Source: Gracilimonas tropica DSM 19535
GTDB lineage: Bacteria > Bacteroidota > Rhodothermia > Balneolales > Balneolaceae
Assembly (NCBI RefSeq): GCF_000375425.1
Contig: NZ_AQXG01000001.1
Location: 561,176-593,175 of the forward strand
Reading direction: 5' to 3'
Length of the DNA stretch: 32,000 nucleotides
Positions 5,233-18,086 of this stretch are shown here, one piece after another. Within the stretch, counting starts at the first letter, position 1. Every line of letters begins with the position of its first letter. A program made the position numbers and the translations under genes. Under the pieces are notes generated by a model that worked only from the letters and a program-made list of their open reading frames with translations, was not told where the DNA came from and did not search any database.

Positions 5233-5237
5233 ATTAT

Positions 5238-6746
5238 ATGCTTCGAAACCAACAAAATTTAAATCAGAAACAGCAGCAGAGTTTACAGCAAAAGCTTTCG
5301 CCTCAACAACTTCAGTACATAAAACTGCTGCAGTTGCCTACTATAGGACTGGAACAGCGCATCAAAGAAGAGATCGAAGCTAATCCGGTATTGGAAGAAG
5401 TAGATCCCGGAGAAGAGGATACTGTAAGTCTTTCTGAGGTTGATGAAAATCCTAAAGAAGAGAAAGAGGAAGCGCTCGAAAGTCTTGAGGAGCACGAAGT
5501 TGACTGGGATGAGTTTGATAAAAACACGGAATATGATGGCGAGCAGTTCGGTAATTCTTTTAATCCCGATATTGAAGAATGGAAGGAGCTTCCCAATCCT
5601 TATCAGGCTTCTTTTTTAGAACAACTGGAGGAACAGGTAAATTTACTTGACCTTACGGATGAGGAACAATTGATAGCCGATCAAATTTTGGGCTCACTTG
5701 ACGAAGATGGTTATTTCCGGCGTGAATTGGAGGCGGTGGTGGATAACATTGCTTTCAACCAGGGTATTTTGATTGATGAAGAGATGGTTGAGAAGGTTCG
5801 AAAAGAGATTCAACAGCTTGAACCAATTGGTATAGCTTCCCGAGATCTCAGAGACTGCTTATTGGTACAACTGAGAGCCTCAGAGAAGAAGCTGCCGGGC
5901 TTGAACCTTGCCATCCAGATTGTTAAAAATGCATGGAAAGCATTCGAGAAAAAACACTTTTCTAAGTTGCTGAAAAAATTCAAAGTCACCAGGGAAGAAT
6001 TGAACGATGCATTTGAGGCTATAAAGCAAATGGATCCACGGCCCGGTGCTGTGGCAAGTGGACTTGAGGAAACTCAAAATTACATTGAGCCGGATTTTGA
6101 GGTTTACTGGAAGGGCATTGAAGACGGTGAAAGTGATCGGGGGGAGTTCATCATCAACCTGAACCAACGGAATGCCCCTTCACTCCGAATATCTCCGGAA
6201 TACAAGCAAATGTGGGAAGAGATCAAATCCAAGAAAGAGAAAAAATCAGATTCAGATGCCCGAAACTTTATGAAGAGTAAGATCGATTCGGCAAATTGGT
6301 TTATAGAGTCGATTCGTCAGCGGCAAAATACGCTGATGAATATCATGAAGACCATTGTGGCATTGCAGGAAGATTTCTTTAAGTACGGAGAAGGACTCAA
6401 ACCTATGATCCTGAAAGATGTAGCTGAAAGAATTGGCATGGATATTTCGACTGTTTCGAGAGTTGTAAACGGTAAATATGTACAGACTTACTTTGGGGTT
6501 TATGAGTTAAAATACTTTTTCAATGAGGGGCTGGAAACTGAAAGCGGAGAAGAAGTATCTAACCGGGAAGTAAAGAATATTCTCGAAAACATCATCAATA
6601 AGGAAGACAAGCAAGATCCTTACAGCGATCAGCAACTAACCGATATGTTGAATGAAAAGGGGTATAAAGTAGCGCGAAGAACGGTTAGCAAATACAGGGA
6701 ACAGCTAAACCTTCCGGTTGCGCGGATGAGGAAACAAGTGATCTAA
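5238..6746 (+). CDS. rpoN: RNA polymerase sigma-54 factor
   Basis: Gln/Leu-rich region I (QQQSLQQKLSPQQLQYIKLLQLP), an acidic region II, a C-terminal HTH (ISTVSRVVNGKY) and the RpoN box ARRTVSKYR. Confidence 0.95.
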   Translation: MLRNQQNLNQKQQQSLQQKLSPQQLQYIKLLQLPTIGLEQRIKEEIEANPVLEEVDPGEEDTVSLSEVDENPKEEKEEALESLEEHEVDWDEFDKNTEYDGEQFGNSFNPDIEEWKELPNPYQASFLEQLEEQVNLLDLTDEEQLIADQILGSLDEDGYFRRELEAVVDNIAFNQGILIDEEMVEKVRKEIQQLEPIGIASRDLRDCLLVQLRASEKKLPGLNLAIQIVKNAWKAFEKKHFSKLLKKFKVTREELNDAFEAIKQMDPRPGAVASGLEETQNYIEPDFEVYWKGIEDGESDRGEFIINLNQRNAPSLRISPEYKQMWEEIKSKKEKKSDSDARNFMKSKIDSANWFIESIRQRQNTLMNIMKTIVALQEDFFKYGEGLKPMILKDVAERIGMDISTVSRVVNGKYVQTYFGVYELKYFFNEGLETESGEEVSNREVKNILENIINKEDKQDPYSDQQLTDMLNEKGYKVARRTVSKYREQLNLPVARMRKQVI

Positions 6747-8263
6747 GCTCCGGCCTTCTGTTCTATAAAATAAAGTACGGGCTGAAGATCATAACTGGTA
6801 TTGGATAGATCTGTATAGCTTTGAAGTGTTCCTTCCCAATCGCTGAACTGCTCTGAGACTAAAATAAAGGCATCTTTGCCGGCTTTTATAATGTTGGTTT
6901 TCAATCCCATCAGCATCAAAATTTTATTGGATAGTTCCTGAGCTTTTTCCAATGACTGAAAAAGTCCCAACTGGATCTGAAAATCGTAGGAGTAATTGGA
7001 GCCTGATAGTTTTTTATAGTTTACCAGGTTTTTATTTCCGGTAGCTCGTTCCAGAAAGTCAGATCGCTTCAAGGTTTCTGAGAGACTCTGCAGCGGTTGG
7101 GTTTGTACCCGGTAAAGTCCGTTTGAAACCGATGAAACCTCCATATCGATATCGTACTTATTTTCTAGAGAAGACGCGTAATTTCGAGCGTTTTCAACAG
7201 ATCGGAATGCTCCCAACTGAATTTGGTATTCGATTGAAGAGGGTATAAACGACTTATCGTAACACTGATGAATGATACCATTTGCAGATCCTGCCCAATT
7301 CGTATTCAGGTTTTCTGCCTTATCAAGGGTTTTTAGAAGATTATTATCTGGTGAAGTTCGAAGTGAAAAATGGGTTCCATTATACACGAGATTCAAATCC
7401 GTATTGCCAGCAGAGCGGGATGAAATAGATTTTGAGGCATTCCTGAAAGCATTTCCAAAGGAGGAAAAACTTCCTAATTGAACGGAATATCTGCATTGCT
7501 GATCAAGAGAAGACACCGCATTTTTTTCTTTTTCTGAACCGGATGCATCTGCCACCGGAAGGGGTTCGGTATAAAAAAGTCTGAGTGTTACCCGCCTGTT
7601 TTGAGCCCGGTTTTCAGGAATAGGCTTGCCGTTGCTATCAATATTAGAGGCAATAGGTCGTGAATCGGCATAGCCTGATGCTTTCAGACGGTCTTTGGAA
7701 ATACCCATTCCGGCCAGAAATTTAACCAGATTTGTGGCTCGTGCAGTCGATAATTCCCAGTTCGATTCATATGCTGCAGAATGGATGGGGACATCATCGG
7801 TATGGCCTTCAACCTCAATCTTAAAATCGTTGTAGGCGTTATTTTTTAAAGCTCGTGCGATTTTATTTAAAAGTGTAAGTGCCTCAGCCTGAATAGTTGC
7901 ACTTCCGGATAGATAGAGGTTATCACTCTTGAGGCGTATAAGAAGATCGTTGAGGTCTCTTTTGATTTCAATTTGATCATCAGCAACTTCTTCTATCAAA
8001 GCAAGTTCTATCTGTTTTCTGATCTTATTAATGGGAGTGGTAATGAACCTGGCTTCTTCCACATCAGATTTAAAAAGGCCTGAAACGGAAAAAACTTCAT
8101 TATCCGACATTTTTGAGACGGAAAGTAAAATGATCAGAAAACCGAGAAGAATAGTTATAATATCAAGGTAACTGATCTGCCAGCTTTCATCTTCGGATTC
8201 TTCCATTTCCTGTTTAGGAAACAAAGAGTTGTCATGCTCTATGTTCGGATCTTTACTACTCAC
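6743..8263 (-). CDS. MotB-like stator protein: N-terminal TM with conserved Asp, OmpA-like peptidoglycan-binding domain, and three C-terminal SPOR-like repeats (506 aa)
   Basis: SWQISYLDIITILLGFLIILL resembles the MotB TM/plug region, including the Asp. The OmpA block is EVEGHTDDVP..NWELSTARATNLVKFL..NRRVTLRL. GTG start at 8261-8263, 6 nt after the MotA stop. An in-frame ATG at 8206 is an alternative start. Confidence 0.85.
   Translation of the reverse strand: MSSKDPNIEHDNSLFPKQEMEESEDESWQISYLDIITILLGFLIILLSVSKMSDNEVFSVSGLFKSDVEEARFITTPINKIRKQIELALIEEVADDQIEIKRDLNDLLIRLKSDNLYLSGSATIQAEALTLLNKIARALKNNAYNDFKIEVEGHTDDVPIHSAAYESNWELSTARATNLVKFLAGMGISKDRLKASGYADSRPIASNIDSNGKPIPENRAQNRRVTLRLFYTEPLPVADASGSEKEKNAVSSLDQQCRYSVQLGSFSSFGNAFRNASKSISSRSAGNTDLNLVYNGTHFSLRTSPDNNLLKTLDKAENLNTNWAGSANGIIHQCYDKSFIPSSIEYQIQLGAFRSVENARNYASSLENKYDIDMEVSSVSNGLYRVQTQPLQSLSETLKRSDFLERATGNKNLVNYKKLSGSNYSYDFQIQLGLFQSLEKAQELSNKILMLMGLKTNIIKAGKDAFILVSEQFSDWEGTLQSYTDLSNTSYDLQPVLYFIEQKAGA
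6778..7492 (-). other. Three tandem SPOR-like domains in the C-terminal half of the MotB-like protein
   Basis: Each repeat opens with an aromatic-x-(V/I)QLG-x-F signature: YSVQLGSFSSFGNAFRNA, YQIQLGAFRSVENARNYA..GLYRVQT, FQIQLGLFQSLEKAQEL. Confidence 0.65.
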
Positions 8264-8269
8264 CTGATT

Positions 8270-9070
8270 CTAAGCTATACCTGAACGATTTTGCTGGATG
8301 TGGGCCTGGAGTTTATCATATATCTGAAGTGCGGTCTTTCCTTCCTCAATCAAAAGTACTCCTTCCAGAATTAACTTTTTCCGGAAATATTTTGAAGATG
8401 CGATATTATTCATCTTTCGTGCCATGGGATTGAAAATAAAGTTACCGATAATAATTCCATATAAGGTTGTCATTAAAGCGGCGGCTAAACCTGTAAGCAG
8501 CGTTTCTATTTGATCAAAGTCTGAAAGGATTACGATCAGCCCAAATAAGGTACCCAACATTCCAAAAACCGGAGCGCTTTTACCCATGCTCGAAATGATG
8601 TCGTTGATCTTTTTTTGCCTGATATAGCTTTCCTGGATATTTGCTTGTCCCAATTCTCTGAGTTCTTGGGTTGAATAGTTTGTATCCAGAACAGAAAACA
8701 GGTAGCCTGCAAACTCTTCTTCGTATTCCAGGCTTAACTCCTCAATAGCTCCCATGCGGTCAGCTTTTATTCTTTTTTGCCATTGAATGATTTTTTCGAT
8801 GTCTTCGGCAAGCAGTTCATCGGTGATCTTGCTATAGGAAAATAATTTAAGACTGTCACGAATGGCTTTGAATACATCTCCGAACTCATAACTAATGAAA
8901 ACACTTGCAAGAATACCCCCGAAGACGATCGCCAGGCTCGGTAAATTCAAGAACCGGTAATCATCAGGAATAAAGTTAAAACTGCTTACCCCGATTACTA
9001 AAAGGGCACCCCATACCAATATCACCGATGCGATCAAAAAACACAGAATATTTAAAACAGAAGTACGCAT
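8270..9070 (-). CDS. MotA-type (flagellar-stator-like) proton channel subunit (266 aa)
   Basis: Four-TM MotA/PomA layout with a ~100-aa cytoplasmic loop between TM2 and TM3. SAPVFGMLGTLFGLI and LMTTLYGIIIGNFIFNPMARKM carry both conserved Pro positions. The C-tail LILEGVLLIEEGKTALQIYDKL resembles the MotA tail. Confidence 0.85.
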   Translation of the reverse strand: MRTSVLNILCFLIASVILVWGALLVIGVSSFNFIPDDYRFLNLPSLAIVFGGILASVFISYEFGDVFKAIRDSLKLFSYSKITDELLAEDIEKIIQWQKRIKADRMGAIEELSLEYEEEFAGYLFSVLDTNYSTQELRELGQANIQESYIRQKKINDIISSMGKSAPVFGMLGTLFGLIVILSDFDQIETLLTGLAAALMTTLYGIIIGNFIFNPMARKMNNIASSKYFRKKLILEGVLLIEEGKTALQIYDKLQAHIQQNRSGIA

Positions 9071-9076
9071 AAACGG

Positions 9077-9622
9077 CTAATTTTGTGGATTGTAGTTTTC
9101 ACCAATCAGTCCTTCTTTTTTCAACTGTTGTATCAGGTAGGGGATATTTGGGATTGGGACTTCATTGTCCATCTCAAGTGCAAGTCTCCATTGCTCGGTA
9201 AATTTTTCAATGTCTCCAAGCCCGAGATAAATACTCCCCCTAAGAGCCAGAATATCTGCTGTTTCCTTGATTTCCGCAGCTTTATTAATATGATATAATG
9301 CACTTTGAAATTTCCCCATATAAAATAGCCTCTGTGCGGAGGAATAGAAGGTAGTGATTCCGTTGGCCCGTCCCTGATATCGTTCACTCAGTTCCCGGAT
9401 ATATTGTTGTTCCAGTTCTTGCTGCCTTTTTTGGGCTTCCAGCTCTTCTAGTGTCAACTGAGCAGTGCTATCTGCACTCACAGAATCGACAGCCTGAGTT
9501 GTTTGTGTGCTTTCATCGGCAGATCTGTTTTTTTCTGAAGCACTGCAATTTATGCACAGAACTGAAATGCCTATGTACAATCCGGTTAATATCTTTCTCA
9601 AAGAGGAAATAACTGATACCAC
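9077..9622 (-). CDS. Secreted or lipoprotein-like coiled-coil plus TPR-like protein (181 aa)
   Basis: Hydrophobic N-terminus ending ..GISVLCINCSAS. Coiled-coil segment LEELEAQKRQQELEQQYIRELSERY. The TPR-like C-terminus is paralogous to the C-terminus of the 999-aa protein. GTG start at 9620-9622; an internal TTG giving MRKILTGLYIG.. is an alternative. Confidence 0.6.
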   Translation of the reverse strand: MVSVISSLRKILTGLYIGISVLCINCSASEKNRSADESTQTTQAVDSVSADSTAQLTLEELEAQKRQQELEQQYIRELSERYQGRANGITTFYSSAQRLFYMGKFQSALYHINKAAEIKETADILALRGSIYLGLGDIEKFTEQWRLALEMDNEVPIPNIPYLIQQLKKEGLIGENYNPQN

Positions 9623-9658
9623 TGATTTTTTAAATATTTAGCCCTTTTGAGGGAGAAG

Positions 9659-11530
9659 TTAATTCAATGCTTTACGAATAGCATCTATAACCATATGCTT
9701 GGCCTGTTCGCCTTTATCAGAATAATTCATCTGTTGAAGTTCCATACGTATCAGATGTTGTTCCCGTTTGGGACGAACAGATAAAAGTTTATCGGCAATT
9801 TCATTATCAAAGCTATAAACTGCTTCCAATAAAAGTTCTGTGGGGATGTGCGCAATGGCTCTCTTGATCAAAGAATGGCTCAGGTGTGGAATTTGATCAA
9901 TAGTGATGAATTGTTCCTCTATAATCCCTGCAACAGGCGATCCGGAAGCTTTCAATTGTTCTATATAGTTAGCCTGATCTTCTAAAGGCATTTGTTGAAT
10001 TATTCTCAGGATATTTTCAGTCCCTTGTTTTAGCTCTTTTTCTACCTCCAAAATATCCATGGCTTTAGAGAACAATCGGGAGGATATCTCTTTGTGTTCT
10101 TTGTACGAAAGAGTATGTAATTGGGCTATACCAAGCATGATATCGACTGTTCGGTCTTTGCCGATCTTATTCAACACTTGAGCCGCTTCGGATTCCGGAA
10201 GATAATCAATAAGCAAAGCTGAAGTGATCCTATCTTCTCCATGAAGAAGCTGCACAATATGATAATCTTTAAGGTGATCAAGAAACTGGAATAGCCCCAA
10301 TTGTTGATGCTTGGCCTTAGCTGATCCGCTTCCAAGTTTATTATTGAGTGCGTCGGCGAATTCGGCAATAGCCGGTTTTGTTGCCTCCGGCGACAAGGGT
10401 TCTGTCGAATTTAACTGGGCCTGAATAGTTTCAAAGTAGGCAGGTTTTAATTCTCTTTTGAGGGCTTTTATAAGGTGCCGGTCTACTGTTTGAATTATAT
10501 TCGAAGCTTTTTCAGCCCCTTTTTTGAGATCGTTTTCCATCCAAAATTCAAATAGCAAGGCGACTTCTTTTGGGTGGTTTAAAAATTGGTCGGTAACAAA
10601 TGTTGTCCCTGCATTGCTGTTGGTTACAGATGCCTTATGGTCATCAATAAAGTCTTCAGCCGAGGGTTGTTTGCTTCCTGGAATTCGTTCACGGGGAACA
10701 TGCATTTCGTGTTTAAGATCATCTCTCGATAATCCGGCTTTATGATCTTTTTTCGGCTGTTTTCTTGAAGGGGAATGAGTAAGCCTTCCAATCAACAAAG
10801 TCAGTCCAACCAAAAGCAGTAATACAAACCCCGGGATATAGTCTTTTACTGAACCCAATAAGGTTTCCCGGGCATCTGCCGGTTCTTCAATTCTGACAGG
10901 AGGGAGCGACTCAATCCCAAAGTCGGGCATGTTGATCAGGGTTATATTTACTTCATCGCCCCGTACTTCATTGATCTTAGCCGCTATCCCGGCTATTAAC
11001 CGCATAAATTCAACCCGATCTTGTTGCCGTGAGATTGAAGAATCAGCATATACGTTGACGCTCAGCTTTAGGATCTGCAACCTTTGTATGGTTTGCTCAT
11101 TTATGATCGTTTGGGTGGTTTCCTGATCATTACTTTGAACTTCTGCCGTCCTCCGGTTTTCTTCAGGTAGAAAAGGCAGACCCGGCATTATTACATTCTC
11201 CTGTTGAGTTCGTCCGCCTTTGATGATTTGATTTTGAGTGGTCTGGAAAGTCTCGTCTACAAATCGTGCATCGATGTTTATATCCACAAAAAACTTTCGG
11301 CTATCAAAGTAATTGGATAATACGTTCAGAACTTGAGCATCGAACTGTTGTTCAAGGGTAATTACTTTTAATTCCAATGACTCAGCGGTATTGGGTTGAG
11401 CATATGTTACCGTGAAGGGAAGGAGGAGAAGAAAAAACGGGAGTATCACTTTCCATAAATGCGAGAGCAAAGCATTGCAATACTGCTTTACTTTCGAACC
11501 ATTTTGAAATGTAAGTGATGCTATTCTCAT
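9659..11530 (-). CDS. Membrane-anchored protein with a FliF/YscJ-like periplasmic ring-building part, one TM, and a FliG middle/C-terminal-like cytoplasmic part (623 aa)
   Basis: Signal-like N-terminus VILPFFLLLLPFTVTYAQ. The periplasmic block LKLSVNVYADSSISRQQDRVEFMRLIAGIAAKINEVRGDEVNITLINMP resembles the FliF/YscJ motif. TM segment GFVLLLLVGLTLLIGRL. Cytoplasmic FLDHLKDYHIVQLLHGEDRITSALLIDYLPESEAAQVLNKIGKDRTVDIMLGIA is FliG_M/MgtE_N-like. FITIDQIPHLSHSLIKRAIAHIPTELLLEAVYSFDNEIADKLLSVRPKREQHLIRMEL..AKHMVIDAIRKAL is FliG_C-like. Its ATG overlaps the upstream stop as ATGA. The CDS is solid; the function is inferred. Confidence 0.6.
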   Translation of the reverse strand: MRIASLTFQNGSKVKQYCNALLSHLWKVILPFFLLLLPFTVTYAQPNTAESLELKVITLEQQFDAQVLNVLSNYFDSRKFFVDINIDARFVDETFQTTQNQIIKGGRTQQENVIMPGLPFLPEENRRTAEVQSNDQETTQTIINEQTIQRLQILKLSVNVYADSSISRQQDRVEFMRLIAGIAAKINEVRGDEVNITLINMPDFGIESLPPVRIEEPADARETLLGSVKDYIPGFVLLLLVGLTLLIGRLTHSPSRKQPKKDHKAGLSRDDLKHEMHVPRERIPGSKQPSAEDFIDDHKASVTNSNAGTTFVTDQFLNHPKEVALLFEFWMENDLKKGAEKASNIIQTVDRHLIKALKRELKPAYFETIQAQLNSTEPLSPEATKPAIAEFADALNNKLGSGSAKAKHQQLGLFQFLDHLKDYHIVQLLHGEDRITSALLIDYLPESEAAQVLNKIGKDRTVDIMLGIAQLHTLSYKEHKEISSRLFSKAMDILEVEKELKQGTENILRIIQQMPLEDQANYIEQLKASGSPVAGIIEEQFITIDQIPHLSHSLIKRAIAHIPTELLLEAVYSFDNEIADKLLSVRPKREQHLIRMELQQMNYSDKGEQAKHMVIDAIRKALN

Positions 11531-14526
11531 TTAGGAGTACTTTCCGCTTCAGGTATTACCATTCTGTCTAATTGTTCCATATCCGGAATGTAAATATCCG
11601 GATCGTATTTTTTTGCTAAATCCCAATAAGATCTAGCATTTTCCTTCTCATTATTCAAGTAAGCCAAACTTCCTTTTAAAGCATAACCTTGAGCAGTTTC
11701 AAAAATATTCAGTGATTCATTAACAAGACTCATTGCCCGGCTCAGGTTCTTATTATAGAAAGCATTTTGTGCTTTAATAATCAATCTTAAAACTTCATCC
11801 AAATTTTGATCAAGTTCAGATTCCAATGCCAACATTTTTTCGTCCGTTTTTATCTCATTGGGAATGGCCTCTGCAGTAATAGGGGAGGCCTCAACTTCCG
11901 GCACTTCATAATCCTGAGGGACTACTAAAAAAGAAAGTCCTTCCACAAAATCCCCTTCCGGTATAGCTTCAACTTCAAATTTCAGACGTTCAGGTATCGA
12001 CTTAGATTGCAATTGTTGAAGATTACCCCGGTCAATTTCGAGACTATATGAACCCGGAGGCACTTCCCATTCATAAAAACTTCCGTCAGAGAATGTTCTT
12101 AATTCTTTAGCAAAATCTCCGTTAGAATCTGATAATCTTAGCTTTAATCCTCCGATCCCGGTTTTACTGCTATCATCTCTCATTCTTTCCACAAATCCAT
12201 CAATAACCCCAGACATATAAAATGGAATTTCCACCTTCTTAAAGCGATTTGGATCGGTGATGAGTCCAAATTTTTCAAATTCCGGAACCAGCATAGGATT
12301 CTGAATGGCGGCTTTATTCATTTCCATATTGTAATAGAAATAGGGCTGCATCTGGGTATAATAAAGAATTCCATCTTTAGACTGACTGATCGCTCCGGAT
12401 CGCTGGATTCTTACGGCATTTCCTTTAATGGGGTCGTCTCCATCGTCAAAGGTGCCATTGTTATTGTTATCCACAAAAAGCTGTATAGCAGTACCAGAAC
12501 GGCCAACCTGATCGCGGCTGGTAAAGAGGAAGTTGTTGTAGTTGGTGTCATACCCGATAGAACCTCGAATATTTTGTGTGAGATTGTTATTCCCACTTAC
12601 ATTATTAAAGGTGGTGTTGGTTCTTACTTTATCGAAATCTATCACGAAGCTAAAGCGGATCGTATTAAAGTCTCGGGCAAAATTCCGGCCTACAGATAAC
12701 TGGAACTGCCCCTTGTTAAATAGGTTTCTGGATACAAGAAATTCAGCAGATTCGAATTGATCCACAGTAGGCTGGTACCTCATTTGTGCTCTCAGGAAAA
12801 CACCCCGCATAAAATTGGGAAGGTTCCTGTTTCTGGAGATGTTATAAGTAGCAGAACTTTCGAAGAAAGCTGTTTGAGTTGGATTGAATGGATCGAAGGT
12901 ACCGGTGTATCGATCGCTGTATCCAATCCGAACATTCATTCTTCCAATTCTGGTATTCGCATCTAAGCGAAAGGAGGTATTACTGGTGTTAGTTCGGAAC
13001 CGGGAAAAAGCTGATGCTCTTAAATTGAAGGGTAATCCACCAAAATTAAATGGATAAAAAACACTGCTTACTAAACGTTTATCATCATTGGAGGGATTGT
13101 ATACTCCAAAACCACTTGTGAAATCCGTGTAATCTATGTTTATGCTTGCGGAATTCGGGTAGATGACGTTCAATAATCCCCTGTAATAAGCTTGAGAAGC
13201 TGCTTCAAGGGTTAACAGGTAATTAGAAGAAATTCTCGAAGATACACTGCCCGTAAAAGTCGGGAGATCAGTATGATATCCTTGAAAAAACTCTATACCT
13301 GCCTTAGCCGTGAGCCAGTCGGTGACACCATAAGCACCGTTACCCTGGGCAGTGAACTGCTGTGAAGTTTCTCCAAAAATAGGATTGTCTAACTGACCGG
13401 CATTGATCGTGTAGTTAAACACTCCCTGAGGCTGGAAAGTAAAAGGAATCTGTATACGATCGGAACGCTCAATGACCTGACCGGTAGGACCGTAAATTCT
13501 CAGGTCAAGTTGGGAGGTTCCATAAGAAACAGGGGTAAGAAATCGGTAATTACCTAATTCATCAGCTTCCTGAAAATCGATCAAAGCGTTGTTCATGTAT
13601 AGTTCCACTTCAGATTCCGGGATTGTGCTTCCTTGAACTACAAACTCATCAAACATCCTTCGGGGCTCAATAGGCTCATTTGATAATCGAACCCCGGTGT
13701 ATGAATTTCTTGTAAAACCGTCAGTTGTGGTTTGTCCGATGGTGAGTTTTGTCAACCAGGGCTGATCCCGGAACATATATCGCCAGCGAAGATTGTCGGT
13801 GGCAAAGTTGGTAAAATTATCCGAGTAGCTTCCGAAAATTGAACCCTGAAGATCTCCTCCGTAAAGCTGAATACCCAGATTGGTATTAAAATTATACACT
13901 TGGTTATTGGGGGTTGCGTTTGCAGAAATATTGTAATCTACAAAACCGCCATCTAGGAAGGGGCGCTGGCGGTCGTACATCAAATCATATTTGGTATCCT
14001 GAAGGCGATTTCGGTCCGCTACTTGCCTACGTTGAGATCGTATAGCCTGTTCTATTGCAGGCAGTTCCTGATTGGTTTGTAAGTTCAGGGTTAGATTGTT
14101 GAAGTTTATGGTAAAATCAAGTCCAAATGCTTCATAGAATACCTCAGCCCGCAAATAACTGTCAATTTCTCTGAGGATATAATCATCAACGGTAAGCTCA
14201 ATGGTTTTGTCTCCGAAACGGATCTGATTGGCTTGGAGATTAATACGATAGGGAGTTTGATCGACTCCAAATTTCCCTTCAATGACGAGTCCGTTAACAT
14301 TCTTGTCGATATTGAAAAGGCTGAAAAGTTCTGAGACGGGGAGATAGAACTCGTCATTCTTATAGTAAGAAATAACAACGGTGTTGATAACACCACGGTG
14401 ACGGAAGTCTAAGTAAACCTCAAAAACATCTTCGTCATTATTTTGTGCAGAAGCATCATTTGGGAAGAAGCCAATACAAAAAATGAAAGAGAATATGATT
14501 GATATTGAAGACTTCCATCGGTACAC
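11527..14526 (-). CDS. Usher-like outer-membrane protein with extra CarboxypepD_reg-like and TPR-like C-terminal modules (999 aa)
   Basis: Signal peptide ..FFPNDASAQ. VELYMNNALIDFQEADELGNYRFLTPVSYGTSQLDLRIYGPTGQVIERS resembles the usher plug/middle-domain pattern. A long region of alternating Gly/aromatic/Asn residues is typical of a beta-barrel. GIGGLKLRLSDSNGDFAKELRTFSDGSFYEWEVPPGSYSL is carboxypeptidase-regulatory-like. The C-terminus is TPR-like. GTG start 1 nt after the chaperone stop. Confidence 0.55.
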   Translation of the reverse strand: MYRWKSSISIIFSFIFCIGFFPNDASAQNNDEDVFEVYLDFRHRGVINTVVISYYKNDEFYLPVSELFSLFNIDKNVNGLVIEGKFGVDQTPYRINLQANQIRFGDKTIELTVDDYILREIDSYLRAEVFYEAFGLDFTINFNNLTLNLQTNQELPAIEQAIRSQRRQVADRNRLQDTKYDLMYDRQRPFLDGGFVDYNISANATPNNQVYNFNTNLGIQLYGGDLQGSIFGSYSDNFTNFATDNLRWRYMFRDQPWLTKLTIGQTTTDGFTRNSYTGVRLSNEPIEPRRMFDEFVVQGSTIPESEVELYMNNALIDFQEADELGNYRFLTPVSYGTSQLDLRIYGPTGQVIERSDRIQIPFTFQPQGVFNYTINAGQLDNPIFGETSQQFTAQGNGAYGVTDWLTAKAGIEFFQGYHTDLPTFTGSVSSRISSNYLLTLEAASQAYYRGLLNVIYPNSASINIDYTDFTSGFGVYNPSNDDKRLVSSVFYPFNFGGLPFNLRASAFSRFRTNTSNTSFRLDANTRIGRMNVRIGYSDRYTGTFDPFNPTQTAFFESSATYNISRNRNLPNFMRGVFLRAQMRYQPTVDQFESAEFLVSRNLFNKGQFQLSVGRNFARDFNTIRFSFVIDFDKVRTNTTFNNVSGNNNLTQNIRGSIGYDTNYNNFLFTSRDQVGRSGTAIQLFVDNNNNGTFDDGDDPIKGNAVRIQRSGAISQSKDGILYYTQMQPYFYYNMEMNKAAIQNPMLVPEFEKFGLITDPNRFKKVEIPFYMSGVIDGFVERMRDDSSKTGIGGLKLRLSDSNGDFAKELRTFSDGSFYEWEVPPGSYSLEIDRGNLQQLQSKSIPERLKFEVEAIPEGDFVEGLSFLVVPQDYEVPEVEASPITAEAIPNEIKTDEKMLALESELDQNLDEVLRLIIKAQNAFYNKNLSRAMSLVNESLNIFETAQGYALKGSLAYLNNEKENARSYWDLAKKYDPDIYIPDMEQLDRMVIPEAESTPK

Positions 14527-14527
14527 G

Positions 14528-15358
14528 TCAGGGGATAGTTACGGTCGTGGTTGCAGTTTCCGGTTCCATTTGAACTAAATCTGTCGGAGAAATATCGCTT
14601 CTGCGTGTTTCGAAAGTAACTTCTACTTGGTATTGACCTGGAGTTAACTCGCTTATATCTACAACTTCACTATGTACTCCATCGAAGTAGAAACTAGTGG
14701 AAGAAAATTTAGAAACTAAAACTTGGCCATCTTTCTTAATGTTAGTTTTTACAGATCCAAGAAAGGGAGAGTTGCCTCCTTTCTTGAACTTAGTTATTAA
14801 CTGTAATTCTCCATTTGAAACAGTACCTTTTTCAATATTCTCAATCATTATATCAGTCGTAGTATTACCGACTTTATAGAAAATACCAGATACTTGAGTA
14901 ATAACTACTCCTATATTAGCTCCAACACCTTGTTCATCACTAAGTTCTACAGGAGCACTTTCTGACTGAGAAATGGTTTTTAATCTAGTCCAGTATGTCC
15001 CATCATTTACTTTATTAGAACCTATTATTCTTAATCTAACAACTTGTCTTTGGCTAGGCTGCAATACGAAGTTTTTCGGGAAAGCCCTGATATCATCTGC
15101 TATCGAATACTTTTGAGCCAGAGCAGAGTCCTCATAAGTTGTTGTTTTATTCCCTTCCTCATCAGTTATAAAATACCCGAATGTAGTTTCAATGCTAATT
15201 TCTTGAGATTCACTAGAATTATTGATGACCATGAAGGTACCGAATTTAGAATCTTCTGTCAGAAACACATTAGTTGGAGCTATAGAAACTTGAGCAAAAG
15301 TAAGTACTGGGAGAATTGTTACAAGTAAAATTAACGAAAATGACTTTCTGAAATTCAT
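14528..15358 (-). CDS. PapD/CsuC-like periplasmic fimbrial chaperone (276 aa)
   Basis: Signal peptide ..LPVLTFAQ. VSIAPTNVFLTEDSKFGTFMVINNSSESQEISIE and IRAFPKNFVLQPSQRQVVRLRI match the two signature strands of pilus chaperones (..P..v.. ..v.N.s.. and f.v.P..f.l.p...q.vR+). The size fits two Ig-like domains. Confidence 0.6.
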   Translation of the reverse strand: MNFRKSFSLILLVTILPVLTFAQVSIAPTNVFLTEDSKFGTFMVINNSSESQEISIETTFGYFITDEEGNKTTTYEDSALAQKYSIADDIRAFPKNFVLQPSQRQVVRLRIIGSNKVNDGTYWTRLKTISQSESAPVELSDEQGVGANIGVVITQVSGIFYKVGNTTTDIMIENIEKGTVSNGELQLITKFKKGGNSPFLGSVKTNIKKDGQVLVSKFSSTSFYFDGVHSEVVDISELTPGQYQVEVTFETRRSDISPTDLVQMEPETATTTVTIP

Positions 15359-15440: not shown

Positions 15441-15477
15441 AAAAAAAAAGTCCCATAATCATTATGGAACTTTTTTT
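15441..15477 (-). terminator. Intrinsic terminator between the putative major subunit gene and the chaperone gene
   Basis: The minus-strand RNA reads GUUCCAU-AAUGAUU-AUGGGAC (7-bp stem with one G-U pair) followed by U9. An A7 tract upstream makes it potentially bidirectional. Confidence 0.7.
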
Positions 15478-15492: not shown

Positions 15493-16041
15493 TTATTGAT
15501 AACTAACAGAAACATTGAGTGGGCCAGAGCCACCATCACCAGTATCTGAACTATATACTCCGGTTGTTGCACCATTTAATGAACCCAAGTTACCACCAAT
15601 GTAGATATAGAGAGCTCCAGTAGCAGATGTTTCACTAACAGTATTAGCAGTGTTTTTTGTCACATCACTTGAAGATGCAATTGCGTCAGTACTATTAGCT
15701 GAAATATCAGGTGTAAAAAGGATAGTATTACTATTTCCATCTCCTAGAGTTACTGTGGTCTGATCCCAATCAATAAGTAATTGGGTTTCGTTTGGACCAC
15801 TTACAGTGAGCTTACCAAATGCACTTCCACCCCCAACATCAGCGGTATTTGTACCTTGGGGATCCAATACTGGTGAGGAAGTTGCAGAAATAACTCCAAA
15901 ATCAACATCAGCATTTTTTGTGACAGTAATTGCAGCTTGAACGTCAGCAGCAATACTAACATCGGCTGATTGCGCATAAGCGCCTGCTGAGAATACAGCG
16001 GCTACGGCAAAAACGGTTAAAAGTGTTTTGAGCGTTTTCAT
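15493..16041 (-). CDS. DUF4402/SCPU-like fimbrial subunit, candidate major subunit (182 aa)
   Basis: I moved the start to the ATG at 16039-16041, giving the signal peptide MKTLKTLLTVFAVAAVFSAGAYAQ. The mature part is rich in Thr/Ser/Gly/Ala/Asn. It has the VDFG motif near the N-terminus and the C-terminal YIYIGGNLG....GVYS...LNVSVSYQ shared with the three upstream paralogs. It is monocistronic, flanked by hairpin terminators. Confidence 0.7.
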   Translation of the reverse strand: MKTLKTLLTVFAVAAVFSAGAYAQSADVSIAADVQAAITVTKNADVDFGVISATSSPVLDPQGTNTADVGGGSAFGKLTVSGPNETQLLIDWDQTTVTLGDGNSNTILFTPDISANSTDAIASSSDVTKNTANTVSETSATGALYIYIGGNLGSLNGATTGVYSSDTGDGGSGPLNVSVSYQ

Positions 16042-16082
16042 AATCGTGAGATTTAGTTTTATTGTTGTTTTAAATTCTGTGA

Positions 16083-16113
16083 TAAAATTATCGAAGTCTT
16101 TTACTTCATCCAA
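16083..16113 (-). promoter_or_regulatory. Candidate Bacteroidota-type promoter for the major subunit gene
   Basis: The minus strand reads TTG-N20-TAATTTTA, compared with the consensus TTG-N19-TAnnTTTG as I remember it. It lies ~45 nt upstream of the ATG. This is a pattern match only. Confidence 0.25.
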
Positions 16114-16163
16114 GTTAGATAGCTTTAATTAAAAGGGTCTAACTGTTTGCTGAAACCTGACTT

Positions 16164-16222
16164 AAAAAGTCTTAGATGACAATTTTGTCTGACCTAAAAT
16201 AAACATGTCTCATCAGACTTTT
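16164..16222 (-). terminator. Imperfect long hairpin / possible terminator after the three-gene minor-subunit block
   Basis: Inverted repeat AAAAGTCTtaGATGACA ... TGTCTCATCAGACTTTT: about 13 bp with bulges and a T-run on the minus-strand 3' side. Confidence 0.35.
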
Positions 16223-16258
16223 ATTTAGAGTTCTTTAATCTTTCTTGTGTTAGAGCCA

Positions 16259-16786
16259 TCAATCATAATCCACCGAAAGAACAATGTCGCCGGTATAAAC
16301 TCCATTGGGAACGTTGCCAACGTTTATGGCACCATATACATAGATGTACATGATCTTCCAGATATCATTGCGGCTTTCCAGGCGGGTGTCTTCATGAATG
16401 GAAACCATTCCGTTGTTATCCGACAGGATATCGGCTCCATTAATACTGTTTTGGCCTGTATTGTTGTATGCCATATTCAGTTCCAGAGGAATTTCAGCTT
16501 CGTTAGCTGGATTATCACTTTCAAGAGATTCGGGATACTGTAAAGTGAGATATACATTTTGGGTATGGAAGGCTTTAATGCTAAAAACCCCCATGTTGAT
16601 GTCCCCAAGCTGGATCTCGGTTCTCCCCGAATTAGTCACCTGAGTTCCAAAGTCAAGATCCTGCTCCACGGTAGCACTTAATTCCGGTTCAACCTTTAGC
16701 TGTAAATTGATGAACTGTGCAGATGTAGGAGAAACATAACAAGCTGAAAAAAGGAAAAGTAATATGATATTTCGAATCTTAATCAT
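16259..16786 (-). CDS. DUF4402/SCPU-like fimbrial subunit paralog (175 aa)
   Basis: Signal peptide ..YVSPTSAQ. LDFG motif. C-terminus MYIYVYGAINVGNVPNGVYTGDIVLSVDYD. The start overlaps the upstream stop by 8 nt (ATGATTAA). Confidence 0.7.
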   Translation of the reverse strand: MIKIRNIILLFLFSACYVSPTSAQFINLQLKVEPELSATVEQDLDFGTQVTNSGRTEIQLGDINMGVFSIKAFHTQNVYLTLQYPESLESDNPANEAEIPLELNMAYNNTGQNSINGADILSDNNGMVSIHEDTRLESRNDIWKIMYIYVYGAINVGNVPNGVYTGDIVLSVDYD

Positions 16787-17432
16787 AAGAAACGGTTATA
16801 GTAATCTCGCCGGAGTAACTTCCTGCATCTACGTTGCCCACATTTAAGGAGCCATAAATATAGATGTAAGCGGTCTCGTTAAATAGAGCCGGATTGTATC
16901 CTTCATAAACCGGGGTAGGAGGAGGTCCGGGTGGTTGATTTCCTCTCGCTAAAATAGGGAATTGTGCACTGGCAACATTAGAAGCTATCTGCATCAAAAC
17001 CGCCTGATTGGTGTTGTTTGATCCCCGGTTTGCATAAGCAGCTTGCAGCGTAAATGGAATGCAATTGGTGTTGGTTCCATTACAGGCCACGTCTGAGTCG
17101 AGGAAGAGATAATTGTCAGCTGTGATATCGACAATGACATCCAGGTATTTGACGCCCTCAATCATTAATATTTTGGCGTCTACAAGATCAATGGATTTAA
17201 CTCCTTCATTTTGAATAACGGTTCCAAATTCCAAATCTTCAGCTGGGTTGAGTTCAGAAAGAGTGACAGCATATTTGCTGCTGAAATCACCAAAATCTAT
17301 TTCCTGGGCTTTCAGCGAAACAGAAGATAGTTGAGTCGTAAAAACCATGATAAGAAGAAACAGAAAACCCGTTCTGCAAATGAATAAAGCAGATCCGAGT
17401 AGTGCATTATTTCGTTTCTTTTTATTTATCAT
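16779..17432 (-). CDS. DUF4402/SCPU-like fimbrial subunit paralog with a Pro-rich insert (217 aa)
   Basis: Signal/TM segment ..FLLIMVFTTQLSSVSLKAQ. LEFG motif. Insert GNQPPGPPPTPVYEGY. C-terminus AYIYIYGSLNVGNVDAGSYSGEITITVSYD. ATGA overlap with the upstream gene. Confidence 0.7.
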   Translation of the reverse strand: MINKKKRNNALLGSALFICRTGFLFLLIMVFTTQLSSVSLKAQEIDFGDFSSKYAVTLSELNPAEDLEFGTVIQNEGVKSIDLVDAKILMIEGVKYLDVIVDITADNYLFLDSDVACNGTNTNCIPFTLQAAYANRGSNNTNQAVLMQIASNVASAQFPILARGNQPPGPPPTPVYEGYNPALFNETAYIYIYGSLNVGNVDAGSYSGEITITVSYD

Positions 17433-17938
17433 ATGTAATCAATCTCAATGGTGAAGTCGCCTTCATAATTTCCTGGCGCTGCATTTTGAAGATTTACACG
17501 CCCGCCAACCCAGATGAAAAATTGTCCTTCTTCATTAAAACGGATATTGCGATTGTCCAATTCCAAAAGTTCGGAAGTAGATTGGTCTTCAATGGAATTT
17601 CCGGAAATTTCGTAGGTAAAAGTCAGTGTTCCGTCTCCGTCAATTTGAGTGAGCTCACGTTCAGGAACATAATTTAATCTGAATTCGGCGTTCGGAGTAC
17701 CAACTGCAATCATATATCCGGCGTTTAAACTTGTTACAGGGTTTACATAGATCTCCTGCTGACCCGGTTGAGCATTGCCGAATTGCATGGTATTAATGGT
17801 AATGAGTTCGATAGATTGGATCACTTCTGCACTTACATTTACACGTGCAGAAATACTTTGATCCTCTCCGTTTTGAGCATGCAAATTCTGGAAACAGAAA
17901 ATTAATAATAAAAATAGGGCTGAGAGAACTCTGTGCAT
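17429..17938 (-). CDS. DUF4402/SCPU-like fimbrial subunit paralog (169 aa)
   Basis: I moved the start to the ATG at 17936-17938, giving MHRVLSALFLLLIFCFQNLHAQ. MQFG motif. C-terminus FFIWVGGRVNLQNAAPGNYEGDFTIEIDYI. Confidence 0.65.
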   Translation of the reverse strand: MHRVLSALFLLLIFCFQNLHAQNGEDQSISARVNVSAEVIQSIELITINTMQFGNAQPGQQEIYVNPVTSLNAGYMIAVGTPNAEFRLNYVPERELTQIDGDGTLTFTYEISGNSIEDQSTSELLELDNRNIRFNEEGQFFIWVGGRVNLQNAAPGNYEGDFTIEIDYI

Positions 17939-18086
17939 TATACCTAAAGCTATAATCTTAATATTAGCGGTATAAAGTTCGTAGTAATTGGCCAACAATA
18001 ATAGTTAATATCCTTTAATTAGCTTGATGTAACACAAGTTAAAAGGCTTTAAGATTTCTCTTGAACATGTAGGATTTCAGGCTAAT

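What the first reader, a model, noticed from the sequence alone, without database searches (positions are those of the whole stretch)
6743..15358. Near gap-free six-gene operon joins a chaperone/usher pair to a MotA/MotB stator and a FliG-like protein
What the sequence shows:
- The chaperone stop is 1 nt from the usher-like GTG.
- The usher-like stop overlaps the ATG of the FliG-like gene as ATGA (11527-11530).
- The following junctions are 36, 6 and 6 nt, to the TPR protein, MotA and MotB.
- A strong terminator (15441-15477) sits just upstream, and the block ends where it converges on rpoN.
- MotA has flagellar-type hallmarks: four TMs, both conserved Pro motifs and a MotA-like C-tail. MotB keeps the channel Asp (YLDIIT).

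Established knowledge: chaperone-usher assembly is regarded as independent of energy at the outer membrane. MotAB-class 5:2 motors deliver proton-motive force to FliG in flagella, or to TonB/TolA/GldM-type partners.

Inference: this locus may encode a PMF-driven envelope-spanning device that powers assembly, rotation or retraction of a DUF4402-type fibre. Its parts would be a stator, a membrane-anchored FliG-like rotor, periplasmic TPR connectors and an usher-like pore. I know of no described system with this composition.
Basis: partly seen in the sequence, partly recalled or inferred. Interest (0 to 1): 0.92.

Follow-up and report, generated by a model that had tools for sequence, protein, structure and literature searches.

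The report
Flagellar-type motor fused to pilus usher
A non-motile marine bacterium has a tightly packed operon that joins a stripped-down flagellar rotor and stator (a FliF–FliG fusion protein plus MotA/MotB) to an outer-membrane pilus-assembly pore; no such machine has been described, and it suggests a use for "half a flagellar motor".

Summary
Six minus-strand genes (15358→6743) are joined by +1, −4 (ATGA), +36, +6 and +6 nt. The source is Gracilimonas tropica, which is described as non-motile.

**What the proteins are**
- The 999-aa protein has no significant Pfam Usher hit. Its AlphaFold model matches only FimD/PapC ushers at the top (E down to 1e-28), with a plug inserted after barrel strand 6.
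- The 623-aa protein is more than "FliG-like". It is a collinear fusion of the FliF RBM3/collar ring domain, a TM helix and FliG N-M-C. The torque-helix Arg is invariant; the FliM-binding EHPQR motif is lost.
- MotA and MotB are flagellar-type (Pro173, Pro222, Thr209 and Asp32 equivalents invariant).
- The chaperone call is weak at sequence level.

**Conservation**
- The DUF4402, chaperone, usher, FliF/FliG, TPR and MotAB genes keep this order in 31 of 31 informative Balneolaceae loci, and the arrangement recurs in four distant metagenomic lineages.
- The motor core also occurs without usher genes.
- A motor-less version of this same locus exists in another Gracilimonas species.

**Reading.** This is most likely a PMF-driven rotor/stator module docked to a divergent chaperone-usher fibre machine. 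The coupling is inferred and the function is untested. I found no description of it in the literature I could search.

The parts
15493..17998 (-). Four tandem DUF4402-type putative fibre subunit genes (15493-16113, 16259-16786, 16779-17432, 17429-17998)
   Evidence: Pfam DUF4402 matches all four window proteins weakly (E 2e-5 to 0.03; one exceeds the gathering cut-off). It matches 20 of 25 family members, best E 1.5e-8. All share a C-terminal GxYxGDxTIxIDY strand. They are conserved upstream of the chaperone gene in type-1 loci, and homologs are present in the remote loci L052 and L053.
15441..15477 (-). Hairpin plus T-run (terminator/attenuator-like) between the last subunit gene and the chaperone gene
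   Evidence: Sequence read. RNA fold -16.5 kcal/mol, z -3.45, 0 of 200 shuffles as stable. Not picked up by the consensus scan.
14528..15358 (-). 276-aa signal-peptide-bearing protein, putative PapD-like periplasmic chaperone
   Evidence: No significant Pfam, NCBIfam or PDB sequence hit. PapD_N is sub-threshold in 4 of 18 orthologs, best E 0.003. hhalign against FimC is not significant, although it aligns the F1/G1-strand motif region. Orthologs are named 'molecular chaperone', 'fimbrial biogenesis chaperone' or 'PapD' by NCBI and JGI. It always lies immediately upstream of the usher gene.
11527..14526 (-). 999-aa divergent outer-membrane usher. N-terminal domain (residues 35-150), beta-barrel (about 182-660; nt 13983-12547) with a plug-like insert after strand 6 (residues 291-358; nt 13656-13453), two C-terminal beta-sandwich domains (665-870), and a C-terminal TPR domain (890-990; nt 11859-11557).
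   Evidence: AF2 model with mean pLDDT 80.7. In Foldseek against the PDB the top 19 hits are all FimD/PapC ushers: E 1.2e-28 to 1.7e-9, up to 943 aligned columns, TM 0.63 to the translocation domain. The next fold class starts at E 1e-8. Pfam Usher matches only 1 of 32 family members.
9659..11530 (-). 623-aa rotor protein. Signal/TM (residues 11-36), FliF RBM3/collar-like periplasmic domain (52-199; nt 11377-10934) with an invariant PGLPFLP loop (115-122), TM helix (225-251; nt 10858-10778), disordered linker, and FliG N-M-C domains (304-622; nt 10621-9665).
   Evidence: Pfam FliG_M 35.0 bits and FliG_C 31.4 bits, both above cut-off; YscJ_FliF_C at E 0.027. Family profile against PDB: FliG MC E 2e-25, FliG_N E 0.004, FliF 373-560 E 0.006. 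hhalign against E. coli FliF 395-457 gives E 3.5e-4 and includes the invariant RGD. AF2 model and Foldseek: all 31 hits with E<=1e-3 are full-length FliG or FliF RBM3/S-ring structures. The R281 equivalent (R589) is invariant in 15 of 15, and the D289 equivalent (E597) is Glu in 11 of 15.
9077..9622 (-). 181-aa TPR protein with an N-terminal signal or lipoprotein-like anchor; putative periplasmic adaptor
   Evidence: Weak TPR hits. Its N-terminus resembles the Pal lipoprotein leader. The same TPR module recurs as a separate gene, at the usher C-terminus, or fused behind a lipoprotein signal after FliG_C in other lineages.
8270..9070 (-). 266-aa MotA/PomA-type stator A subunit
   Evidence: MotA_ExbB 60.9 bits. 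Best NCBIfam matches are MotP/PomA/MotA. Best PDB matches are flagellar MotA/PomA (8ucs, 6ysf, 8brd, E about 4e-22), with no ExbB or TolQ. P173, P222 and T209 equivalents are invariant; the R90 equivalent (K102) is Lys or Arg in 13 of 15.
6743..8263 (-). 506-aa MotB-type stator B subunit: TM with the channel Asp (D34) and plug, an OmpA-like peptidoglycan-binding domain, and a C-terminal SPOR region
   Evidence: MotB_plug 32.2 bits, OmpA 60.7 bits and SPOR 47.7 bits. Best NCBIfam matches are MotD/MotB. The D32 equivalent is invariant. The SPOR region is collinear with the SPOR tail of the usher in motor-less Gracilimonas.

Best explanation
The operon encodes two machines that are kept together.

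**The fibre machine.** It is a very divergent chaperone-usher pathway:
- four DUF4402 subunits;
- a PapD-like periplasmic protein;
- a 999-aa usher with barrel, plug, N- and C-terminal domains, plus an added C-terminal TPR domain.

**The motor.** It is a minimal, flagellum-derived rotor/stator:
- The rotor is one polypeptide. It combines the ring-building RBM3/collar domain of FliF (periplasm), a TM helix, and a complete FliG (cytoplasm). By analogy with the MS-ring it would oligomerise into a membrane ring that carries one FliG per subunit.
- The stator is a MotA5B2-type proton (or Na+) channel. It is anchored to peptidoglycan through the OmpA and SPOR domains of MotB.

**Proposed mechanism.**
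1. Ion flow through the MotB Asp34 channel turns the MotA pentamer.
2. The MotA cytoplasmic face pushes on the FliG torque helix (R589/E597).
3. The rotor ring turns, or is loaded with torque.
4. The periplasmic collar engages the TPR module (the free TPR protein and/or the usher's own TPR tail), possibly through its invariant PGLPFLP loop. This transmits the motion to the usher or to the fibre base in the outer membrane.

The most likely output is movement of an already assemblable fibre: spin, screw-like extrusion or retraction. Assembly itself is probably not the output.

**What is shown and what is inferred.** Protein identities, conserved catalytic and interface residues, gene order and its conservation are shown. 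Ring formation, the TPR-collar contact, physical coupling to the usher and the nature of the output are inferred.
For: - **Fold and profile identities.** Usher; FliF-RBM3 plus FliG fusion; flagellar-type MotA/MotB.
- **Functional residues kept across 35-59% and about 23% identical relatives.** MotA P173/P222/T209 and the R90-like charge; MotB D32; FliG R281 invariant and D289→E. The FliM-binding EHPQR motif is lost, as expected if there is no C-ring.
- **Translational coupling.** An ATGA overlap joins the usher and rotor genes here and in L050; gaps elsewhere are 0-34 nt.
- **Synteny in Balneolaceae.** All 31 type-1 loci that have upstream sequence carry chaperone plus usher directly upstream of the rotor gene. 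All loci with downstream sequence carry TPR-MotA-MotB.
- **Synteny in remote lineages.** Four lineages whose rotor proteins are only distantly related keep usher, chaperone and DUF4402 homologs next to the rotor and MotAB genes. For L050, L052 and L053 homology was confirmed with family profiles (usher E about 1e-232 or better). The fourth contig had no DNA, so its assignment rests on gene sizes and a precomputed DUF4402 hit.
- **Shared TPR module.** It is found on the usher tail, as the free TPR protein, and in the TPR genes of usher-less loci.
- **Family size.** There are 191 representatives (50%-identity clusters) at E<=1e-30, and nearly all of the 150 best listed are full-length at about 600-750 aa. 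This is not a decaying remnant.
- **Host.** It is reported non-motile, with few motility genes.
Against: - **No experiment.** There is no structural model of any complex either.
- **The motor core occurs without usher genes.** In type-2 loci it sits with a 357-395-aa unknown protein. In one Gammaproteobacteria MAG it sits beside Wza/Wzc/Wzy. Its partner is therefore not fixed.
- **A motor-less locus exists.** Gracilimonas sp. Q87 has the same chromosomal locus with subunits, chaperone and usher but no motor. The fibre pathway evidently persists without it.
- **Some rotor homologs may be tethered.** They run in frame into a lipobox-like segment plus a LysM peptidoglycan-binding domain. That is hard to reconcile with a freely spinning ring.
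- **Interface charges are only partly kept.** The MotA E98 equivalent and the FliG K264 and R297 equivalents are not conserved.
- **The chaperone is not confirmed at fold level**.
- **I could not scan the G. tropica genome** for a flagellar regulon or a second motAB pair.
Confidence: 0.55

Rival explanations
1. The rotor/TPR/MotAB genes form an independent envelope module. It could be, for example, a Tol-Pal-like or septum-associated force generator acting on peptidoglycan or the outer membrane. In this view it merely sits next to the fibre operon in some lineages, and the fibre is assembled and used without it.
For: - The motor core exists without usher genes in many genomes, some of which also hold a type-1 locus.
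- A motor-less fibre locus exists.
- Peptidoglycan-binding domains recur: SPOR on MotB, LysM on some rotor proteins, and a Sel1/SPOR neighbour.
- A TPR protein plus an OmpA-domain protein next to a MotA/TolQ-family channel recalls TolQR-Pal-CpoB. The TPR protein's leader resembles Pal's.
- Bacteroidetes are reported to lack recognisable tol-pal loci (PMC12204202).
Against: - The usher and rotor genes are translationally coupled (ATGA) here and in a remote lineage.
- The association recurs in four distant lineages with homologous usher, chaperone and subunit genes.
- The usher carries the same TPR module as the motor's TPR protein.
- The rotor is FliF/FliG-type, not TolA/TonB-type, and MotA groups with flagellar stators.
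Confidence: 0.25
2. The motor does not spin a fibre. It acts like TonB: limited-angle torque or pull from the ring is used to gate the usher, by removing the plug or resetting the C-terminal domains. It could equally energise export through whichever outer-membrane barrel is encoded nearby.
For: - Different outer-membrane barrels lie beside the core in different loci: usher here, a Plug-domain 974-aa barrel in L037, DUF5723 in L059, and BBP2_2/Wza in L049.
- LysM-tethered rotor variants argue against free rotation.
- The usher model has a plug domain in its pore.
Against: - Classical ushers gate without energy (established knowledge).
- The motor-less Gracilimonas locus keeps an otherwise 72%-identical usher.
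- The rotor keeps the full ring-building and FliG architecture of a rotary device.
Confidence: 0.15
3. The FliG-like, MotA and MotB genes are decaying leftovers of a lost flagellum that happen to lie beside a fimbrial operon. This is the 'broken flagellar pathway' reading published for the Balneolaceae.
For: - PMC9909488 reports incomplete flagellar pathways in the Balneolaceae and interprets them as gradual loss. Some relatives (Aliifodinibius) retain many flagellar genes.
Against: - All ORFs are intact in 47 genomic loci despite divergence down to about 23% identity. Channel and torque residues are invariant.
- The rotor is a rearranged fusion, not a truncated fliG.
- The family is large and reaches a Gammaproteobacteria MAG.
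- Gene order is fixed.
Confidence: 0.03

Closest known systems
Bacterial flagellar motor core (FliF MS-ring, FliG, MotA5B2/PomAB stator)
   Same: - The MotA/MotB pair is of the flagellar clade: plug, channel Asp and an OmpA-like peptidoglycan anchor.
- FliG N, M and C domains are present, with the torque-helix Arg and an acidic residue.
- The periplasmic domain has the FliF RBM3/collar fold, followed by a TM helix. The order is collinear with fliF-fliG.
   Different: - FliF and FliG are one polypeptide, and FliF RBM1 and RBM2 are missing.
- The FliM-binding EHPQR motif is lost.
- No FliM/FliN, export gate, rod, hook or filament genes are in the cluster.
- MotB carries SPOR repeats.
- The host is reported non-motile.
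- The genes sit in an operon with an usher.
Chaperone-usher pili (FimD/PapC type 1 and P pili; archaic Csu/spore-coat-U type)
   Same: - The usher fold has N-terminal domain, barrel, plug after strand 6 and two C-terminal domains.
- The gene order is subunits-chaperone-usher, with a hairpin after the subunit genes.
- The small secreted subunits share a conserved C-terminal strand.
   Different: - Sequence similarity is below Pfam and NCBIfam thresholds for both usher and chaperone.
- The subunits are DUF4402, not Fimbrial or SCPU.
- The usher has an extra TPR tail, or a SPOR tail in relatives.
- Known chaperone-usher systems have no inner-membrane or energy-transducing component.
Engineered or spontaneous FliF-FliG fusion proteins (Salmonella; Vibrio, PDB 8z4d/8z4g, bioRxiv 10.1101/2023.02.06.527414)
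   Same: There is one chain with the FliF ring domain, a TM helix and FliG. The Vibrio fusion is reported to form rings in the membrane (listed). I recall, from my own knowledge, that the Salmonella fusion supports motility.
   Different: Those are laboratory constructs of full-length FliF within complete flagella. This is a natural, conserved fusion that lacks RBM1 and RBM2 and lies outside any flagellar gene set.
Other 5:2 ion-driven motors coupled to the outer membrane (ExbBD-TonB, TolQR-TolA-Pal-CpoB, GldLM/T9SS, AglRQS-Glt)
   Same: The concept is the same: an inner-membrane ion-driven motor next to TPR and peptidoglycan-binding proteins and an outer-membrane barrel, delivering energy to an outer-membrane process.
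   Different: - The transducer is not TonB/TolA/GldM-like. It is a FliG domain contacted from the cytoplasmic side.
- MotA is of the flagellar type; only a negligible ExbB hit appeared and none to TolQ.
- The B subunit has the flagellar plug and an OmpA-like domain.

Membership tests
Chaperone-usher pathway | Outer-membrane usher: 24-strand barrel with an internal plug domain, a periplasmic N-terminal domain and two C-terminal domains | tested here: met
   AF2 model with pLDDT 80.7, with an insert at residues 291-358 after the sixth barrel strand. The top 19 Foldseek PDB hits are all FimD/PapC, E to 1.2e-28, with up to 943 aligned columns covering near full-length ushers.
Chaperone-usher pathway | Sequence membership in Pfam Usher (PF00577) or in the NCBIfam usher models | tested here: not met
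   The window protein has no hit. PF00577 matches 1 of 32 family members at E 3e-4.
Chaperone-usher pathway | PapD-like periplasmic chaperone (two Ig-like domains, a conserved Arg8/Lys112 cleft, a G1 donor strand) | tested here: inconclusive
   No PDB sequence hit. PapD_N is sub-threshold in 4 of 18 members. hhalign against FimC gives E 0.44, though it aligns the F1/G1 motif region. By eye, the position I would match to Arg8 in 'APTN' is Asn; this is my own comparison, not a tool alignment. Orthologs are named PapD or fimbrial chaperone by NCBI and JGI.
Chaperone-usher pathway | Subunits with an incomplete Ig fold that polymerise by donor-strand exchange | not tested
   Only the DUF4402 assignment and a conserved C-terminal strand motif. 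There is no solved relative by sequence.
Bacterial flagellar motor | MotA/MotB-type stator: four-TM A subunit with the two conserved prolines; B subunit with channel Asp, plug and an OmpA-like peptidoglycan-binding domain | tested here: met
Bacterial flagellar motor | FliG with N, M and C domains and a charged torque helix | tested here: met
   FliG_M and FliG_C are above Pfam cut-offs, while FliG_N is just below at 21.6 bits against 25. Profile against PDB gives E 2e-25. The fold matches full-length FliG over about 310 columns. R281 is invariant and D289 is Glu, but K264 and R297 are not kept.
Bacterial flagellar motor | Full FliF MS-ring (RBM1, RBM2, RBM3) as a separate protein | tested here: not met
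   Only the RBM3/collar-to-C-terminus part is present, and it is fused to FliG.
Bacterial flagellar motor | C-ring partners FliM/FliN and the FliG EHPQR FliM-binding motif | tested here: not met
   No such genes are in the window or in related loci. Only E125 of the EHPQR motif is conserved.
Bacterial flagellar motor | Type III export gate, rod, hook and filament genes in the genome | not testable with these tools
   They are absent from the 32-kb window. The literature reports G. tropica as non-motile, with 17 COG-N genes, and lists it among the Balneolaceae lacking flagellar-assembly genes. The whole genome could not be scanned here.
Ton/Tol-type force transduction | ExbB/TolQ-type A subunit, ExbD/TolR B subunit without plug or OmpA domain, and a TonB/TolA transducer | tested here: not met
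   The MotA best hits are all flagellar; ExbB appears only at E 0.007 and 16.5 bits. The B subunit has MotB_plug and OmpA. No TonB or TolA domain is in the operon.

The most novel reading that the evidence does not exclude
This would be a previously undescribed class of envelope-spanning rotary machine. A one-polypeptide FliF(RBM3)-FliG ring, driven by MotAB stators without any C-ring, export apparatus or axial rod, would turn or screw an usher-assembled DUF4402 fibre (a 'motorised pilus'). In sister loci it would drive other outer-membrane devices. It would be the first non-flagellar use of FliG, and a natural 'minimal rotor' bearing on how the flagellar torque generator arose or was recycled.
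Probability: 0.35. Interest if true: 0.95.

Novelty: categorically new. Interest (0 to 1): 0.88.

Why it matters
- **A new role for FliG.** FliG and the FliF ring are known only from flagella. A conserved, widespread module that keeps just rotor ring, FliG and MotAB, and wires them to a pilus usher, would be a new way of delivering proton-motive force to the outer membrane.
- **A challenge to a textbook view.** Chaperone-usher fibres are regarded as passive and energy-independent.
[quoted passage not shown]" (bioRxiv 10.1101/2024.12.05.626484).
- **Relevance to flagellar origins.** The system offers a natural minimal rotor/stator pair with no C-ring, no switch and no export gate.
- **Tractability.** The system sits in cultured, sequenced marine isolates (Gracilimonas tropica DSM 19535; Balneola vulgaris at least carries the chaperone ortholog). 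A natural motor-less comparator exists in another Gracilimonas species.

Tried and rejected
- **Literature.** Searches for DUF4402, for FliG with usher or chaperone-usher, for FliG homologs in non-flagellated bacteria, and for FliG/MotA in Bacteroidota found no description of this system. They turned up only general MotAB phylogeny, periplasmic force transducers and the 'half a motor' remark.
- **Sequence tests of the chaperone.** Pfam, NCBIfam, a PDB profile search and hhalign against FimC were all non-significant. The recurrent Por_Secre_tail-like hits on its C-terminal half (12 of 18 members) I take as generic beta-sandwich similarity, not evidence of T9SS sorting. They do not reach significance in the window protein.
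- **PDB profile search with the DUF4402 family.** It gave only chance-level alginate-lyase hits.
- **Promoter and terminator scan.** Counts were no higher than in shuffles, and the scan missed the AT-rich hairpin.
- **Sigma-54 promoter pattern.** I tried it because rpoN is adjacent and one remote locus has a sigma-54 activator. It gave 14 matches against 12.3 expected, so there is no signal.
- **Flagellar-relic explanation.** Rejected on conservation grounds.
- **A recent deletion creating the motor-less Gracilimonas locus.** This is plausible from collinearity, but the SPOR regions are only 24% identical. The direction and age of the event remain open.

Full report
**1.

The window is from Gracilimonas tropica (Balneolaceae). 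The 623-aa product is 100% identical to an NCBI protein of that species.

Six minus-strand ORFs occupy 15358-6743. I read the junctions directly:
- chaperone TGA, then one base, then the usher GTG;
- usher stop and the next start share ATGA (11527-11530);
- gaps of 36, 6 and 6 nt follow.

The last gene ends 4 nt inside the stop of the convergent rpoN.

An AT-rich hairpin with a T-run lies at 15477-15441. It folds at -16.5 kcal/mol (z -3.45), although the consensus terminator scan missed it. It sits between the fourth DUF4402 gene and the chaperone gene. This resembles the attenuators that follow major-subunit genes in fimbrial operons (my own knowledge). The six genes may therefore also be reached by read-through from upstream.

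**2. What the six proteins are.**

*MotA (266 aa).*
- It matches MotA_ExbB.
- Its best NCBIfam and PDB relatives are all flagellar MotP/PomA/MotA, with E about 4e-22 to 8ucs, 6ysf and 8brd. Only a negligible ExbB hit appeared (E 0.007), and none to TolQ.
- Equivalents of E. coli P173, P222 and T209 are invariant in 15 family members. The R90 equivalent (K102) is Lys or Arg in 13 of 15. The E98 equivalent is not conserved.

*MotB (506 aa).*
- It has MotB_plug, OmpA and SPOR domains.
- It has an invariant channel Asp, D34.

*The 999-aa protein.*
- It has no significant usher hit by sequence. PF00577 matches 1 of 32 relatives.
- Its AlphaFold model (pLDDT 80.7) shows an N-terminal domain, a large barrel with a domain inserted after the sixth strand, two beta-sandwich domains and a TPR tail.
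- Its top 19 PDB matches are all FimD/PapC ushers (E 1.2e-28 to 1.7e-9). The next fold class starts at 1e-8.
- It is a genuine but very divergent usher.

*The 276-aa protein.* It is only weakly chaperone-like:
- it has no PDB sequence hit;
- PapD_N is sub-threshold in 4 of 18 orthologs;
- hhalign against FimC is non-significant;
- NCBI and JGI do name orthologs as PapD or fimbrial chaperones.

*The four upstream proteins.* They belong to DUF4402 and share a C-terminal GxYxGDxTIxIDY strand.

**3. The 623-aa protein is the key part, and it is more than FliG-like.**

- FliG_M and FliG_C exceed Pfam's cut-offs.
- A 20-sequence family profile hits FliG MC structures at E 2e-25. It hits FliG_N at 0.004 and Salmonella FliF residues 373-560 at 0.006.
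- hhalign against E. coli FliF aligns the invariant 'RGD...P' segment with FliF 395-457 at E 3.5e-4.
- The AlphaFold model (pLDDT 70.8) contains, in order:
  - an alpha-beta-beta-alpha-beta ring-building motif, whose two strands are about 24 residues long and form a hairpin with the invariant PGLPFLP at its disordered tip;
  - a TM helix (residues 225-251);
  - a disordered linker;
  - an all-helical FliG.
- All 31 PDB matches with E<=1e-3 are either full-length FliG (about 310 aligned columns) or FliF RBM3/collar S-ring structures (TM 0.45-0.59). The next hit is SpoIIIAG, another ring-former.

The protein is therefore collinear with FliF(RBM3 to C-terminus) followed by FliG(N-M-C). It is a natural one-chain MS-ring/FliG rotor that lacks RBM1 and RBM2.

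In the torque helix the R281 equivalent (R589) is invariant, and the D289 equivalent is Glu in 11 of 15. The FliM-binding EHPQR motif is lost except for its Glu, as expected if there is no C-ring.

**4. Conservation.**

A scan of one genome per species found 47 loci. Nearly all are labelled Balneolaceae, Balneola or Gracilimonas. They fall into two types.

- **Type 1 (33 loci; rotor 35-59% identical).** All 31 with upstream sequence carry the chaperone and usher genes directly upstream, and nearly all keep recognisable DUF4402 homologs. All with downstream sequence carry TPR-MotA-MotB.
- **Type 2 (14 loci; rotor about 23% identical).** The order is rotor, a 361-aa unknown protein, TPR, MotA and a short MotB, with no usher. 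In L037 a 974-aa Plug-domain barrel lies downstream. Some genomes hold both types.

An exhaustive profile search found 191 representatives (50%-identity clusters) at E<=1e-30. Nearly all of the 150 best listed are full-length, at about 600-750 aa.

I sampled their contexts.
- **Usher-linked.** L050, L052, L053 and the P0479 contig have DUF4402, chaperone and usher genes next to the rotor and MotAB. For the three loci with DNA, family profiles confirmed homology: usher E about 1e-232 or better, chaperone 1e-65 to 1e-98.
- **Type 2.** L054, L057 and L059.
- **Variant.** L058.
- **Gammaproteobacteria MAG.** The core sits beside a BBP2_2 porin and Wza/Wzc/Wzy.

One TPR module recurs in four forms: as a free protein, as the usher's tail, in type-2 TPR genes, and in L052 in frame behind a lipoprotein signal after FliG_C.

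**5. A natural control.**

Gracilimonas sp. Q87 has the same chromosomal locus. It runs from the T9SS adhesin through the pilin-like triplet, four DUF4402 genes, the chaperone and the usher to the convergent rpoN, DUF3109, BCCP and EPSP synthase genes. It has no rotor, TPR, MotA or MotB.

Its usher (72% identical over the shared part) ends in SPOR repeats. These are collinear with residues 188-503 of the window's MotB (24% identity, E 7e-11). Many Gracilimonas ushers have this form.

Two things follow.
- The usher C-terminus and the MotB C-terminus are both periplasmic and wall-associated.
- The fibre pathway persists without the motor. The motor therefore most likely adds a property, such as movement, rather than enabling assembly. 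This is consistent with the established energy-independence of chaperone-usher assembly.

**6. Is it just a flagellar stator next door?**

- G. tropica is described as non-motile and has 17 genes in COG category N (PMC4642740).
- A comparative study lists G. tropica and Balneola among the Balneolaceae lacking flagellar-assembly genes. It calls the pathway incomplete everywhere and interprets this as gradual loss (PMC9909488).
- The conservation in sections 3 and 4 argues against decay.
- I could not scan the whole genome, so this point rests on the literature.

**7. Most likely mechanism (inferred).**

1. Ion flow through MotA5B2 turns MotA against the FliG torque helix. The stator is anchored to the wall by OmpA and SPOR.
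2. The fusion guarantees one FliG per ring subunit, so the rotor ring turns or is loaded with torque.
3. The periplasmic collar contacts the TPR module on the usher and/or the free TPR protein.
4. The motion acts on the usher or the fibre base.

Rotation is an attractive output because chaperone-usher fibres are thought to rotate in the usher pore as they are extruded (my own knowledge of FimD work).

Against a free-spinning ring, some rotor homologs carry a C-terminal LysM domain behind a lipobox-like segment. A limited-angle, TonB-like action is therefore a serious alternative. So is an independent envelope role for the motor, given the type-2 loci.

**8. Comparison and novelty.**

- It works like a flagellar rotor/stator, but it is not a flagellum. 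RBM1 and RBM2, FliM/N, the export gate and the axial parts are not met.
- It contains an usher by fold, but it lies outside the sequence-defined usher and chaperone families.
- Literature searches found no description of such a system. I found only the remark that rotor proteins in non-motile species 'could have an alternative function'.
- I rate it categorically new in composition. The function is untested.

Noticed in passing
window 18530-23636 (-): There are two paralogous triplets of pilin- or pseudopilin-like proteins with N-terminal hydrophobic helices (183/199/377 aa and 139/196/455 aa; the 455-aa one has DUF4900). They lie between the T9SS adhesin and the DUF4402 genes. They are conserved in about half of the type-1 loci and missing in the rest.
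   Followed up: partly
window 23778-31355 (-) and 31460-31822 (-): A 2525-aa protein with Laminin_G_3, Invasin_D3 and a T9SS C-terminal sorting domain heads the cluster. Homologs of it precede the fibre genes in most related loci. A second small T9SS-tailed protein lies upstream.
   Followed up: partly
L048 (Gracilimonas sp. Q87) 3973-14188: This is a motor-less version of the same chromosomal locus. The usher is 1395 aa and ends in SPOR repeats collinear with the SPOR tail of the window's MotB. Many Gracilimonas ushers (1164-1549 aa) are of this kind.
   Followed up: yes
L037 9989-18005; also L054, L057, L059: A second ('type 2') architecture has a FliF/FliG fusion, a 357-395-aa unknown secreted or anchored protein, a TPR protein, MotA and a short MotB, with no usher. 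An outer-membrane barrel gene lies downstream in some: a 974-aa Plug-domain protein in L037 and DUF5723 in L059. Some genomes carry both types.
   Followed up: partly
L049 5191-18819 (Gammaproteobacteria MAG): The motor core is in permuted order, with a Sel1/SPOR protein. It sits directly beside a BBP2_2 porin and Wza/Wzc/Wzy polysaccharide-export genes.
   Followed up: no
L050 5844-8267, L053 10001-12226, L052 10001-12265: The rotor ORFs run in frame into a lipobox-like hydrophobic segment followed by a LysM domain (L050, L053) or a TPR domain (L052). This is either a third TM with a periplasmic tail, or an unrecognised separate lipoprotein gene.
   Followed up: partly
window 6743-6746: The stop codons of motB (-) and rpoN (+) overlap by 4 nt, so the two convergent genes share no intergenic terminator. 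No sigma-54 promoter match above chance was found in the window.
   Followed up: yes
window 9659-11530, residues 115-122 of the product: An invariant PGLPFLP motif sits at the low-confidence tip of the long periplasmic beta-hairpin of the rotor protein. It is conserved even in the 22%-identical type-2 relatives. It is a candidate docking site, but nothing tests this.
   Followed up: no
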